From NCBI GenBank assembly GCA_030950485.1, contig JAUZRK010000015.1:2010-66009 (forward strand): a stretch of 64,000 nucleotides of DNA. The letters run 5' to 3'. A model generated the notes under the pieces. That model was not told the DNA's origin. It made no database searches and was given only the letters and a program-made list of their open reading frames with translations. How positions within the stretch are numbered: position 1 is the first letter of the stretch; each line of letters opens with the position of its first letter. This document shows, piece after piece, positions 29,157-31,460 of the stretch. Origin of the DNA: Candidatus Dojkabacteria bacterium (GTDB lineage Bacteria > Patescibacteriota > Dojkabacteria > J137). A program made the position numbers and the translations under genes.

Positions 29157-31460
29157 CTATTTCCTCACATCATGCCCACCAAACTGGTTTCTAAGTGCAG
29201 AAACAACTTGTCCAATATAGCTAGGATTACTTTTTGAATCTATTCTAAACTGCAAAGCATCTTCAATAACCTTTACTAATATGTCGATCTCTTTTGCAGC
29301 TTCAACAGTCCATTTTCCTTCGCCGTTACTATCAACTTCGCCGGAAATATTTTCTAAAGTAACTCCATCTTGATCAAAAGCTTTTAATAACCAACCAATC
29401 AATCTAGATTGGATAACACTACCTTTATTATAAATTTCAGAAACATCTTTTAGATTTAAGTTGAAATTTGATTTTCTTAAGACCTCAAAGCCTTCTGCAA
29501 TAGCCTGCATCATTCCATATTCAATTCCATTATGTACCATTTTTACAAAATGACCAGCTCCAGCTCCTTCAAAGAACTTATAACCACAAGGGAATGATAT
29601 CTGTTTAAACAATTCTTCAGTATGTAAGAAATTAGTATAATTCCCACCAATCATTGCGCAAGCACTATTTCTAGCACCACTAGGACCTCCTGAGATTCCA
29701 ACATCAATAAAATTAATGCCCTTCTGTTCAATTACCTCATATCTTTTAATAGTATTTTTATAATTTGAATTTCCAGCATCAATTAAATAATCTCCAGGCT
29801 CTAAATAATTTATTAATCCATCTTTAGCAACTAAAACATCTTCTACCGCATCGCCAGATGGAACCATAACCCAAATAATTCTAGGTGCTTTAAGTTTTTC
29901 TACTAATTCTTTATATGAATAAGCTCCTTCTCCTCCTAATCCAACAAAATTATCAATCTTATCTTTAGACCGATTATAAGCTATAACTTTCCAACCTTCT
30001 TCTAAAAGTTGTTCTGCAATACCTTGTCCCATTTTGCCTAAACCAACTACACCTATTTCTTTATTAGTTTTGTACGTGAACTTCTCATTAATGTAGTTAG
30101 ATGATTCAATAGCCTTATCTGAGTTTTGTTTATAGGTTTCTAGAGCAACTACATTATCATCCCAAGCGTTTACAATTGGATCAATAAATCTCCATGAAGC
30201 TAATACTTCTTTAAAACTTACAAACCAGGTCTGTTTTCCATGTATTACATCTAAAATTCCAATTTTGTATTCATCTAAGTACTGCTTTCTCTCCTTTGAT
30301 TCAAGAATCTTGCATTCTAGATTATCCCCATTGGCATACGACATCATATCGAAATTTATAGATAGATTTTCTTTAGGAGGAAGATTGAATTTAATATAAT
30401 TTTCTAAATTTTCAACTCCAAGATCTTTATGTGCTTTATCTACTTCTACTTCTCTAAATGTAATTTTTACATATTTTTCTTCGCTAGGAAGTTTTTTTCC
30501 TGACTGAATAATAATAGGTACATTTCTCCATTTAGGCATATCAATATAAAACTTTATTTTAAAGAATGTTTCTTTATTAGACTTTTTGTTAACACCGTCT
30601 ATTTCTCTGTATCCTTTATACTGAGCTCTATAGGTGTTATATTTTATCTCCTCAATATTCAATATTTTAAGTCTTGAAAGTAAATCAGCTCTCGCGCTTC
30701 TAATCTCTGCTGAACTAAAATCAACAGGCTTATCCATTGTTAATAAAGCTACTATTTGCAGAATATGATTTTGTCCTACGTCTTTTAATGTTCCTACACT
30801 ATCATAGAAGGCTCCTCTAGTTTCAACTCCGAAATCTTCATTTAAAACGATTTCAATTTTCTCTATTGAATCATTATCCCAGGCGAATTTATAAATAGAA
30901 TTGAAAAATCTTAATGCAAAGATATTTCTTACAATTCCCTTATGAAGATAGTGGTCAATTAAGAAAGTTTCTTCTTCACTAAAGCATGACTCTAAGAGTC
31001 TATTGATTTTTATTGCGCTTAAAAAATCAGTTCCTATTGGTTTCTCAACTATAATCCTAATATTTGTATCTTTAAATTCACCTCTAATATTTTTTAGATT
31101 ACCGATAATATCTGAATATGCATCTCCTCTTACAGCAAGATGGAAGATAGTATTTGAAGTAGAGTTCTTTAGTATTAATTTGCTTAACTCCTCATATCCT
31201 TTTGGATCATTAAAATCAGTTGAAACAAATTCTATTATTTCAAGGAATTTTTCAGTGCTTTCGCTGTAGTTATGAAGAACTTGTGTCTTTAGATATTCTC
31301 TAAATTCTTTATTATCAAAGGTTCTCCGAGAGATTCCTATAATTTTGAAATTTTTTGAAAGCTTATTTTCTTTATATAGTTCGAAGAGGGCTGGGAGGAT
31401 CTTCTTTTTAGCAAGATCTCCAGTTGCACCAAATAAAGCGAATGTTGCTGAGTTATCCAT
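29157..31460 (-). CDS. Fused glucose-6-phosphate dehydrogenase (N-terminal) and short-type 6-phosphogluconate dehydrogenase (C-terminal)
   Basis: N-terminus has [14 protein letters not shown] (G6PD NADP site), IDHYLHK (DHYLGK motif) and RGAFYD. C-terminus has [18 protein letters not shown] (Rossmann fold) and the 6PGD signature [27 protein letters not shown]. 767 aa in one ORF. Confidence 0.8.
   Translation of the reverse strand: [767 protein letters not shown]

What the first reader, a model, noticed from the sequence alone, without database searches (positions are those of the whole stretch)
29157..31460. Single ORF fusing glucose-6-phosphate dehydrogenase with 6-phosphogluconate dehydrogenase
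The N-terminal ~470 aa carry the G6PD hallmarks ([16 protein letters not shown]-type IDHYLHK). The C-terminal ~300 aa form a short-type 6PGD (GLGKMGQG Rossmann fold, [21 protein letters not shown] signature). This would place oxidative-PPP steps 1 and 3 on one polypeptide. No 6-phosphogluconolactonase is visible nearby. Zwf-Pgl fusions are the familiar arrangement, and a Zwf-Gnd fusion is uncommon. It is also one of the long genes that has no lesions.
Basis: partly seen in the sequence, partly recalled or inferred. Interest (0 to 1): 0.6.

Follow-up and report, generated by a model that had tools for sequence, protein, structure and literature searches.

The report
Fused G6PD–6PGD gene, common in Patescibacteria
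One intact gene in this Dojkabacteria-like genome joins the first and third enzymes of the NADPH-making sugar pathway; the fusion is real, but well over a hundred database proteins from related tiny bacteria share it, so it is ordinary and only under-described.

Summary
Window 29157..31460 (- strand) is one uninterrupted 767-aa ORF with an ATG start and a TAG stop. Residues 1-460 are a complete glucose-6-phosphate dehydrogenase. Residues 468-767 are a complete short-chain 6-phosphogluconate dehydrogenase. A roughly 7-25 residue unconserved linker joins them. All catalytic and substrate-binding residues are present in both halves. Both cofactor loops look NADP-type.

A second, independent assembly is base-identical across the junction. 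The 120 best database hits (41-52% identical) are all full-length fusions of 765-846 aa. They come from many Patescibacteria (CPR) lineages, and some from Coriobacteriia-labelled MAGs. Sources name them only "glucose-6-phosphate dehydrogenase".

The fusion probably arose from a zwf→gnd(short) gene pair by loss of the stop codon. Such unfused pairs exist in CPR and Bacilli. No lactonase domain is in the protein, in the scanned window ORFs, or next to six other fused genes. Lactone hydrolysis is therefore presumably spontaneous or encoded elsewhere.

A G6PD-6PGD fusion has been published only for a diatom. I found no paper on the bacterial family.

Verdict: a new member of a known kind, modest interest (about 0.3).

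The parts
29157..31460 (-). Whole fused gene zwf-gnd (767 codons plus TAG stop at 29157-29159)
   Evidence: single ORF, ATG start, no internal stops
30924..31436 (-). G6PD N-terminal NAD(P)-binding domain (res 9-179). Contains GATGDLA (11-17), the R45/R46 2'-phosphate position and EKPIG (139-143)
   Evidence: Pfam PF00479 1e-46; alignment to L. mesenteroides G6PD; invariants in A1
30081..30917 (-). G6PD C-terminal beta+alpha domain (res 182-460). Contains catalytic His232 (30765-30767) and Lys322. The D169-H170-Y171-L172-H173-K174 substrate peptide lies just upstream at 30939-30956
   Evidence: Pfam PF02781 4e-68; PDB alignments; Foldseek 1dpg TMt 0.84
30060..30080 (-). Inter-domain linker between the Pfam domain limits (res 461-467). 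The unconserved stretch is about res 445-467. It holds no stop and no usable internal start codon
   Evidence: alignment A1 shows a variable-length, unconserved segment; pLDDT <50 at 462-464; sequence read
29595..30059 (-). 6PGD Rossmann domain (res 468-622). Contains GLGKMG (473-478), N496-R497-S498 (29967-29975), N564 and S590-G-G
   Evidence: Pfam PF03446 4e-43; NCBIfam; PDB short-chain 6PGDs; motif tally
29160..29555 (-). 6PGD all-helical single hemi-domain plus C-terminal tail (res 636-767). Contains K640/H643/N644/E647 (29520-29543), R739 and the RX2FGXH tail R757..H763 (29172-29192)
   Evidence: Pfam PF00393 positions 1-115 only; TIGR00872 full length; PDB alignments; motif defined in PMC12871650
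29111..29138 (-). Intrinsic-terminator-like hairpin (12-bp stem, then TTTTTG) about 18 nt after the stop codon
   Evidence: sequence
31477..31505 (-). Weak sigma-70-like promoter match upstream of the ATG (9/12; not above shuffle expectation)
   Evidence: 13 found against 14.8 expected, so only suggestive

Best explanation
The gene encodes one bifunctional enzyme of the oxidative pentose phosphate pathway.

The N-terminal module (res 1-460) oxidises glucose-6-phosphate to 6-phosphoglucono-delta-lactone. The C-terminal module (res 468-767) is a short-chain, single-hemi-domain 6PGD that oxidatively decarboxylates 6-phosphogluconate to ribulose-5-phosphate. Both steps most likely use NADP+, so the polypeptide would yield 2 NADPH and Ru5P per G6P.

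The intervening lactone hydrolysis is not encoded in the protein. It is presumed to be spontaneous or carried out by an unlinked hydrolase.

The gene is monocistronic, with its own terminator, and is not part of a PPP operon here. It belongs to a coherent family of fused proteins spread through Patescibacteria. The family most simply arose by loss of the stop codon in a zwf→gnd(short) gene pair.

The fixed polarity (6PGD always C-terminal) is explained, by inference, from how short-chain 6PGDs work. Their free C-terminal helix and tail (RX2FGXH) must close the active site of a neighbouring subunit in the tetramer.

What is shown: ORF integrity, domain identity, conservation of catalytic residues, family distribution and gene contexts. 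What is inferred: both activities, NADP preference, oligomeric assembly, the origin by stop loss and the polarity rule.
For: ORF and motifs.

Domains and family scores.

The closest solved relatives of the N half are G6PDs (8i37 1e-67, 1e77/1dpg about 5e-67). The window keeps the equivalents of L. mesenteroides T14, R46, E147-K148-P149, D177-H178-Y179, K182, H240 and K343 (invariants).

The closest solved relatives of the C half are the short-chain 6PGDs 6xeq/10gw, 6vpb, 8ihe and 4e21 (1e-56 to 4e-50). It keeps [14 protein letters not shown] (K640, H643, N644, E647) and the C-terminal RNQFGGH (motif role from PMC12871650).

The junction is identical in an independent assembly.

The 120 best hits are all collinear fusions of 765-846 aa from many CPR lineages. 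About 13 full-length fused clusters remain at 50% identity.

The AF2 model has mean pLDDT 88.8, with two confident modules and a low-confidence linker. The G6PD fold is confirmed.

NR[ST] is present in 103 of 131 fused proteins (N496-R497-S498 here). The solved short-chain enzymes carry Asp at the Asn position; 8ihe is deposited as NAD(+)-dependent.

Functional contexts elsewhere: transaldolase plus cupin PGI directly upstream (L083), transketolase directly downstream (L087), and thiol-redox genes nearby (L083 and L085).

Unfused zwf→gnd(short) pairs with real stops and their own ATG occur in a Moraniibacteriota MAG and in Bacilli.

In the sample, about 30 adjacent gnd(short)→zwf pairs are all unfused. 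A PGI-6PGD fusion (P0158) also keeps 6PGD at the C-terminus.
Against: No enzyme of this fused family has been assayed, as far as I could find.

The G6PD half is divergent. It is only 36-40% identical to the same half of other fused proteins, against 51-56% for the 6PGD half. It scores below the TIGR00871 equivalog cutoff (370 against 400.6). It has Gly112 where at least 90% of the family has Pro (FYLAVPP becomes FHLAVRGD). It also lacks the PCLCP cysteine motif present in 94 of 131 members. Reduced or altered G6PD activity therefore cannot be excluded.

No lactonase was found, so flux through the two steps depends on an unproven hydrolysis step.

The cofactor assignment rests on motif analogy only.

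The polarity rule rests on a capped, non-random sample of genomes.
Confidence: 0.85

Rival explanations
1. The fusion is an artefact. Two adjacent genes (zwf, then short gnd) were merged by an assembly or indel error that removed the stop codon.
For: The related assembly L001 shows many indels relative to the window. There the gene is called as a truncated 576-aa protein. Adjacent unfused zwf→gnd(short) pairs exist in other genomes, some in the same frame and separated by only a few codons. A neighbouring gene in the window carries a frameshift.
Against: The L001 differences cluster in the last ~1.1 kb of that contig. Across the junction the two assemblies are identical. More than 130 independently assembled homologues from many samples have the same continuous architecture. 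The linker contains no start codon that would give a functional separate 6PGD; the only ATG is M477, inside the GxGxxG motif.
Confidence: 0.02
2. Only one half is catalytically active. The divergent G6PD half has become a regulatory or scaffolding pseudo-enzyme, or uses another sugar phosphate or cofactor, and the protein is effectively a 6PGD with an N-terminal extension.
For: The G6PD half is below the TIGR00871 equivalog cutoff. It has the Pro→Gly change at position 112 in a loop that I recall, untested here, lies near the coenzyme. It has GK→HK in the DHYLGK peptide and lacks the family's Cys motif. It is much more diverged than the 6PGD half.
Against: Every residue known to be catalytic or substrate-binding in L. 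mesenteroides or human G6PD is retained. The same substitutions occur in its nearest fused relatives (P0002, P0121, P0125), which otherwise stay conserved. The model is confident across the domain.
Confidence: 0.08
3. The C-terminal half is not a 6PGD but another beta-hydroxyacid dehydrogenase, such as HIBADH or tartronate-semialdehyde reductase, so the fusion couples G6PD to a different reaction.
For: The NAD_binding_2 domain is shared by that superfamily. Weak hits to those families appear (TIGR01505 8.5e-25, HIBADH 1.7e-21) and.
Against: The 6PGD-specific models score far higher and exceed their curated cutoffs (TIGR00872 319.8 > 297.2; NF007161 340.3 > 271). The other families reach less than a third of theirs. 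The 6PGD signature [14 protein letters not shown] and the 6PG-binding RX2FGXH tail are present.
Confidence: 0.02
4. The fusion exists for substrate channelling or lactonase bypass. Tethering the two dehydrogenases in one assembly lets the lactone or 6PG pass directly, so these reduced genomes dispense with Pgl altogether.
For: No Pgl domain lies next to any of seven fused genes examined. Both partner enzymes are obligate oligomers, so a fused chain must build a joint complex (PMC12871650; inference).
Against: The two reactions are not consecutive, and the skipped step needs water, not a tunnel. The linker is short, variable and predicted to be disordered. Whole genomes could not be searched for Pgl. 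A simple benefit from co-expression and stoichiometry in a tiny genome explains the fusion equally well.
Confidence: 0.25

Closest known systems
Patescibacterial/CPR proteins annotated 'glucose-6-phosphate dehydrogenase' of about 780-800 aa (e.g. from Levybacteria, Azambacteria, Uhrbacteria, Magasanikbacteria, Saccharibacteria; P0002-P0120)
   Same: Same collinear architecture G6PD_N + G6PD_C + NAD_binding_2 + short 6PGD. Identity is 41-52% over 98-100% of the length, with the same invariant catalytic residues.
   Different: The window protein is a divergent member. It forms its own 50% cluster with P0001. It is shorter (767 aa), lacks the GLTxPC loop and the PCLCP motif, and has Gly in place of the near-invariant Pro at position 112. 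These traits are shared only with a small subclade (P0002, P0121, P0122, P0125).
G6PD-6PGD fusion of the diatom Phaeodactylum tricornutum (Stover et al. 2011, PMC3148214)
   Same: The same two enzymes on one predicted polypeptide, with G6PD first.
   Different: It is eukaryotic and was reported as restricted to that species and close relatives. The gene model was disputed. Whether its 6PGD is short- or long-chain, and whether it shares ancestry with the bacterial family, was not tested here.
G6PD::6PGL fusions (Plasmodium GluPho, Giardia, Trichomonas) and vertebrate H6PD
   Same: G6PD fused to another oxidative-PPP enzyme, yielding a bifunctional protein.
   Different: The partner there is the lactonase (step 2), so the steps are consecutive. 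Here the partner is step 3, and no lactonase domain is present.
Stand-alone short-chain tetrameric 6PGDs (Gluconobacter oxydans 6XEQ/10GW, Gluconacetobacter diazotrophicus 6VPB, M. tuberculosis Gnd2 8IHE/9IJB)
   Same: About 300-aa Rossmann domain plus a single helical hemi-domain, catalytic Lys/Glu, and the C-terminal RX2FGXH tail.
   Different: These are not fused. The solved examples have Asp at the end of beta2 (HDR, FDR, YDH); 8ihe is deposited as NAD(+)-dependent, and the others I recall as NAD-preferring. The window has N-R-S, as in NADP-specific long-chain enzymes.
Unfused zwf→gnd(short) operons (Moraniibacteriota MAG L003; Fictibacillus, Brevibacillus, Paenibacillus, Mycobacterium)
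   Same: Same gene order and the same enzyme subtypes. In L003 the gap is only a few codons.
   Different: Real stop codons and a separate ATG for gnd.

Membership tests
Glucose-6-phosphate dehydrogenase (Zwf; PF00479+PF02781) | N-terminal Rossmann dinucleotide motif GxxGDLA | tested here: met
   GATGDLA at res 11-17; G11, T13, G14 and L16 are invariant in A1
Glucose-6-phosphate dehydrogenase (Zwf; PF00479+PF02781) | EKPxG and (R)IDHYLGK peptides, with Asp/His/Lys equivalents of L. mesenteroides D177, H178 and K182 | tested here: met
   E139-K140-P141-I-G143; D169-H170-Y171-L172-H173-K174, where Gly is replaced by His and the Lys is kept
Glucose-6-phosphate dehydrogenase (Zwf; PF00479+PF02781) | Catalytic histidine (L. 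mesenteroides His240) in the GQNH motif | tested here: met
   H232 aligned to His240; invariant in A1
Glucose-6-phosphate dehydrogenase (Zwf; PF00479+PF02781) | Profile scores above curated thresholds | tested here: inconclusive
   Both Pfam domains are far above gathering (160 and 230 bits against 22 and 27). The TIGR00871 equivalog score of 370.2 is below 400.6
Glucose-6-phosphate dehydrogenase (Zwf; PF00479+PF02781) | G6P-dependent NAD(P)+ reduction | not testable with these tools
   Needs an enzyme assay
Short-chain (tetrameric) 6-phosphogluconate dehydrogenase (TIGR00872 / NF007161) | Full-length match above curated cutoffs | tested here: met
   TIGR00872 319.8 > 297.2, positions 3-297 of 299; NF007161 340.3 > 271
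Short-chain (tetrameric) 6-phosphogluconate dehydrogenase (TIGR00872 / NF007161) | Single helical hemi-domain (about 300 aa in total) rather than the duplicated C-domain of long-chain enzymes | tested here: met
   The Pfam 6PGD match covers only profile positions 1-115 of 290, and the module is 300 aa. The best PDB hits are 332-358-aa short-chain enzymes
Short-chain (tetrameric) 6-phosphogluconate dehydrogenase (TIGR00872 / NF007161) | Catalytic Lys/Glu pair and His/Asn in [14 protein letters not shown] | tested here: met
   K640, H643, N644 and E647 are invariant in A1
Short-chain (tetrameric) 6-phosphogluconate dehydrogenase (TIGR00872 / NF007161) | C-terminal RX2FGXH substrate-binding tail | tested here: met
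   R757-N-Q-F760-G761-G-H763 lies four residues from the C-terminus. The motif is defined in PMC12871650
Short-chain (tetrameric) 6-phosphogluconate dehydrogenase (TIGR00872 / NF007161) | Homotetrameric assembly | not testable with these tools
   Only a monomer model was made
Patescibacterial fused Zwf-Gnd family | Single polypeptide, collinear alignment over both halves with other fused members | tested here: met
   98-100% query coverage with 119 full-length fused proteins; alignment A1; one matched stretch 1-767 in the representatives
G6PD::6PGL bifunctional enzymes (GluPho, H6PD) | A 6-phosphogluconolactonase (Glucosamine_iso, PF01182) domain fused to G6PD | tested here: not met
   No such Pfam or NCBIfam hit. 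There is no unassigned sequence long enough to hold a domain; the linker is about 7-25 aa
Diatom G6PD-6PGD fusion (Stover 2011) | Shared origin with the Phaeodactylum gene | not tested
   The sequence could not be retrieved with these tools. No diatom protein appeared among the best 120 or 150 hits

The most novel reading that the evidence does not exclude
In these minimal genomes the fused Zwf-Gnd protein is the entire oxidative pentose phosphate branch and works with no dedicated lactonase. It would act as a joint assembly: a 6PGD tetramer core carrying two G6PD dimers. Co-localisation and fixed 1:1 stoichiometry would replace Pgl. The need for a free 6PGD C-terminal tail would dictate that only the Zwf→Gnd order can ever be fused.
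Probability: 0.25. Interest if true: 0.45.

Novelty: new member of a known kind. Interest (0 to 1): 0.3.

Why it matters
[quoted passage not shown] That branch would also be the entry point to the PPP shunt that many CPR bacteria are thought to use in place of phosphofructokinase (PMC7304191).

Pipelines label the family only as 'G6PD'. Metabolic reconstructions that rely on product names could therefore score 6PGD as missing.

The family would also be a convenient natural scaffold for a two-step NADPH-regeneration enzyme. It offers a clean test of whether Pgl is dispensable.

None of this changes current understanding of the pathway. It is an annotation and enzymology point rather than a new kind of system.

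Tried and rejected
1. Alternative genetic code or hidden stop. The ORF ends in TAG and contains no in-frame stop of any kind, so recoding is irrelevant.

2. Assembly chimera. Rejected by the independent assembly and the family-wide architecture.

3. Lactonase hidden in the linker or in neighbouring genes. The linker is too short. Neighbours are surface, cadherin-like or unknown proteins. No PF01182 hit appeared in any scanned window ORF.

4. The genome-contig scan meant to give taxonomic distribution was capped at 600 pattern matches and returned mostly non-CPR genomes with adjacent, unfused genes. It was useful for gene order but not for counting fusions.

5. Neighbour-joining trees of each half were star-like, with fused and unfused sequences interleaved and no support values. 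They show only that the window groups with P0002, P0121, P0122 and P0125 in both halves. They cannot decide between single and multiple fusion events.

6. Seven literature searches found no description of the bacterial fusion. Absence from this library is not proof of absence.

7. The promoter scan was not above the shuffle background.

8. Same-frame spacing of the unfused pairs (4 of 5 by my arithmetic from the coordinates) looked suggestive of recent fission. The junctions have genuine stops and their own start codons.
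Full report
**Observation.** The window carries one open reading frame on the minus strand from 31460 (ATG) to 29157 (TAG stop at 29159-29157). It is 767 codons long with no internal stop. The window is 28-36% G+C, where stop codons are frequent, so a 2.3-kb ORF is far beyond chance.

**Domain identity.**
- Pfam finds G6PD_N (9-179, 1e-46), G6PD_C (182-460, 4e-68) and NAD_binding_2 (468-622, 4e-43).
- It also finds the first 115 of 290 positions of the 6PGD C-domain (636-744, 1e-20).
- NCBIfam places the C-terminal 300 residues in the short 6PGD families over their full length and above their curated cutoffs: TIGR00872 319.8 > 297.2 and NF007161 340.3 > 271.
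- The N-terminal part matches zwf TIGR00871 end to end (5-460), but at 370.2 bits it is below that model's 400.6 equivalog cutoff.

**Solved relatives.**
- The N half is closest to bacterial G6PDs: H. pylori 8i37 (1e-67) and L. mesenteroides 1e77/1dpg (about 5e-67).
- The C half is closest to the short-chain 6PGDs 6xeq/10gw, 6vpb, 8ihe and 4e21 (1e-56 to 4e-50), ahead of the long-chain dimeric enzymes.
- An AlphaFold2 model built on 36 fused homologues has mean pLDDT 88.8. The only low-confidence stretches are an internal loop (373-382) and the linker (462-464). pTM 0.67 is what one expects for two well-folded modules with an undefined mutual orientation.
- Foldseek recovers the G6PD fold (1dpg, TM 0.84 on the target). 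No solved chain spans both halves.

**Is the junction real?** A Dojkabacteria MAG (GCA_030949735.1, contig JAUZSD010000007.1, locus L001) is 98.5% identical to window 28590-41447.
- In that assembly the gene was called as a 576-aa protein (P0001).
- The base-by-base comparison shows the two sequences are identical from L001 10071 to 11722, which covers the junction.
- The differences are a dense run of indels and substitutions in the last ~1.1 kb of that contig, typical of an unpolished contig end.
- The window therefore holds the good copy, and the junction is supported twice.
- The linker has no stop. The only ATG near the start of the 6PGD module is M477, inside the GxGxxG motif. A separately translated, functional 6PGD is thus unlikely.

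**Catalytic competence.** From the HMMER alignments, the window keeps the equivalents of these L. mesenteroides G6PD residues:

| L. mesenteroides | Window |
|---|---|
| T14 | T13 |
| R46 | R45 |
| E147-K148-P149 | E139-K140-P141 |
| D177-H178-Y179 | D169-H170-Y171 |
| K182 | K174 |
| H240 | H232 |
| K343 | K322 |

- The roles of these residues come from established knowledge of that enzyme, not from a test here.
- In the 6PGD module the signature [14 protein letters not shown] is intact (K640, H643, N644, E647).
- N564, S590-G-G and R739 are present, as is the C-terminal R757-x-x-F-G-x-H763.
- A 2026 preprint on the Gluconobacter enzyme shows that short-chain 6PGDs are tetramers. Their last helix and the RX2FGXH tail close over the substrate in a neighbouring subunit (PMC12871650).

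**Cofactor.**
- The G6PD half has Arg at the position of L. mesenteroides Arg46. I recall this residue as the 2'-phosphate ligand; that is knowledge, not a test here.
- The 6PGD half has N496-R497-S498 at the end of beta2. This matches the N-R-T/S fingerprint that I recall from NADP-specific long-chain 6PGDs.
- The solved short-chain enzymes carry Asp at the Asn position: HDR, FDR and YDH. 8ihe is deposited as NAD(+)-dependent; the others I recall as NAD-preferring.
- Across 131 fused proteins, 103 have NR[ST]. About a tenth have Asp.
- NADP use by both halves is therefore an inference from motifs.

**The family.**
- The word-indexed search returned 2091 significant proteins. The best 120 are all full length (765-846 aa, apart from the truncated P0001), cover 98-100% of the query at 41-52% identity, and carry both domain sets.
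- Named sources include Levy-, Azam-, Taylor-, Roizman-, Magasanik-, Uhr-, Doudna-, Saccharibacteria and Peribacter, 'Patescibacteria group', and a few Coriobacteriia MAGs.
- Almost all names read 'glucose-6-phosphate dehydrogenase'.
- In the exhaustive search of 50%-identity representatives, about 13 full-length fused clusters lead the list (P0121-P0133). Unfused G6PDs (about 440-490 aa) and unfused short 6PGDs (about 300 aa) follow.
- The fused family is therefore large in members but compact in sequence space.
- The alignment A1 shows an unconserved, length-variable linker and strong conservation elsewhere.

**Divergence of the window protein.**
- It has Gly112 where at least 90% of the family has Pro (FYLAVPP becomes FHLAVRGD).
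- It has a shorter loop before EKP.
- It lacks the PCLCP cysteine motif found in 94 of 131 members.
- Its G6PD half is 36-40% identical to other fused proteins, against 51-56% for the 6PGD half.
- It groups with P0002, P0121, P0122 and P0125 in crude trees of both halves. This fits a fusion older than that subclade.

**Origin and polarity.**
- A capped scan of GTDB species genomes returned 80 loci. ORF inspection shows that nearly all apparent 'full-length' matches are adjacent separate genes.
- With the two halves as separate queries, about 30 loci have short gnd immediately upstream of zwf. None of these is fused.
- Six loci have zwf upstream of short gnd. One (L002) is a true 809-aa fusion. 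Five are separate genes: a Moraniibacteriota MAG, Fictibacillus, Brevibacillus, Paenibacillus macquariensis and a Mycobacterium MAG.
- The five separate pairs have genuine stops and their own ATG. In the CPR example the two genes are only a few codons apart.
- The simplest history is therefore stop-codon loss in a zwf→gnd(short) pair.
- The observed polarity fits the requirement for a free 6PGD C-terminal tail. So does a PGI-6PGD fusion (P0158) that also keeps 6PGD last.
- This polarity rule is my inference from a biased sample and is untested.

**Context.**
- In the window the gene stands alone. A hairpin (about 31513-31537, read) follows the upstream gene.
- A 12-bp-stem terminator with a T-run follows the gene's own stop (29138-29111).
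- The flanking genes encode secreted, surface or cadherin-like proteins and proteins with no Pfam match.
- Elsewhere in the window are an F-type ATP synthase operon (37.4-44.2 kb), iPGM and enolase (45.3-48.2 kb), and redox proteins.
- No Pgl family hit was seen among the 59 window ORFs submitted to Pfam, nor among the precomputed Pfam hits listed for genes within 8-10 kb of six other fused genes.
- Those other contexts support a PPP and redox role:
  - transaldolase and a cupin-type PGI directly upstream in a Magasanikbacteria genome, with thioredoxin-reductase-like, glutaredoxin and peroxiredoxin genes nearby (L083);
  - transketolase overlapping the 3' end in another genome (L087);
  - glutaredoxin, thioredoxin and FMN reductase around a Saccharibacteria copy (L085).

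**Mechanism.**
- Most likely (confidence about 0.85) the protein is a bifunctional G6PD/6PGD. It would convert G6P to Ru5P with two NADPH, with lactone hydrolysis occurring off-enzyme.
- Spontaneous hydrolysis of the delta-lactone is established chemistry, and Stover et al. note it (PMC3148214).
- Why fuse non-consecutive steps? The evidence supports nothing beyond fixed stoichiometry and co-expression in a small genome. A channelling or lactonase-bypass role remains possible (about 0.25) but is untested.

**Comparison with known systems.**
- The only published G6PD-6PGD fusion I could find is the Phaeodactylum tricornutum gene. In 2011 it was reported as having no counterpart in nr (PMC3148214).
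- The familiar fusions pair G6PD with the lactonase (Plasmodium, Giardia, Trichomonas, H6PD). The window protein fails that family's defining feature, a 6PGL domain.
- Seven full-text searches found no description of the bacterial fused family.
- The CPR metabolism survey that discusses the oxidative PPP does not mention a fusion (PMC7304191).
- The architecture is nevertheless plainly visible in public annotation.
- I therefore rate it a new member of a known kind: real, intact and probably functional, but not surprising to a specialist. Interest is about 0.3.

**Limits.**
- No whole genome could be searched for a lactonase.
- The trees are unsupported.
- All functional statements rest on sequence and model evidence.

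Noticed in passing
L031 2304-2960; L014 11481-12092; L009 8886-9494; L005 7709-8326 and 13423-14055; L087 12182-12808; L049 6387-6953 (-): Genes of the PF04199 'putative cyclase' family (kynurenine-formamidase/isatin-hydrolase type metal hydrolases, HxG[TS]HxDAPxH motif) sit next to zwf/gnd in unrelated genomes. The arrangement is zwf-X-gnd in Halanaerobium and in Anoxybacillus (gnd convergent there), and gnd-zwf-X in a Clostridiaceae MAG. In a CPR genome the gene lies after the fused zwf-gnd and tkt. None of the neighbouring ORFs I submitted to Pfam is a canonical Pgl. This family is a candidate non-orthologous 6-phosphogluconolactonase. I found no paper linking the two terms, and no homologue in the window.
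   Followed up: partly
window 31563-35578 (-), lesion near 32775-32790: The 934-aa cadherin-like surface-protein ORF (32774-35578) continues in another frame, without stops, down to 31563. This looks like one gene of roughly 1,300 aa or more broken by a frameshift. The related assembly L001 breaks the same gene at different places, so sequencing indels or real decay are both possible.
   Followed up: partly
L001 11720-12845 versus window 28590-29740: The public Dojkabacteria assembly GCA_030949735.1 has an error-dense contig end with dozens of indels and substitutions in about 1.1 kb. This truncates its copy of the fused gene to 576 aa and led to the name 'NAD(P)-binding domain-containing protein'.
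   Followed up: yes
protein P0158 (735 aa): A different fusion: a phosphoglucose isomerase-like N-terminal part (judged from the sequence; not profile-tested) joined to a short-chain 6PGD, again with 6PGD at the C-terminus.
   Followed up: no
alignment A1 columns ~425-432 (consensus HPxPCLCP); absent at window res ~336-345: 94 of 131 fused proteins carry a conserved Cys-x-Cys ('PCLCP') motif in the G6PD C-domain. The window protein and its nearest relatives lack it. It may be a redox-regulatory or metal site.
   Followed up: no
window 54600-56303 (+): A 567-aa protein combines thioredoxin, metallo-beta-lactamase and two rhodanese domains. It is followed by a separate 154-aa rhodanese protein (56321-56785). 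The architecture resembles persulfide dioxygenase-rhodanese fusions and is unexpected in a reduced genome.
   Followed up: no
L085 11304-11639: A 111-aa ORF with a G6PD_C Pfam hit lies about 1 kb downstream of the fused gene in a Saccharibacteria contig. It could be a G6PD fragment or remnant.
   Followed up: no
window 37480-44210 (+) and 45329-48156 (+): An F-type ATP synthase operon (a, b, alpha, gamma and beta subunits found) is followed by iPGM and enolase. This is ordinary, and it shows the window is core chromosome rather than a mobile element.
   Followed up: no
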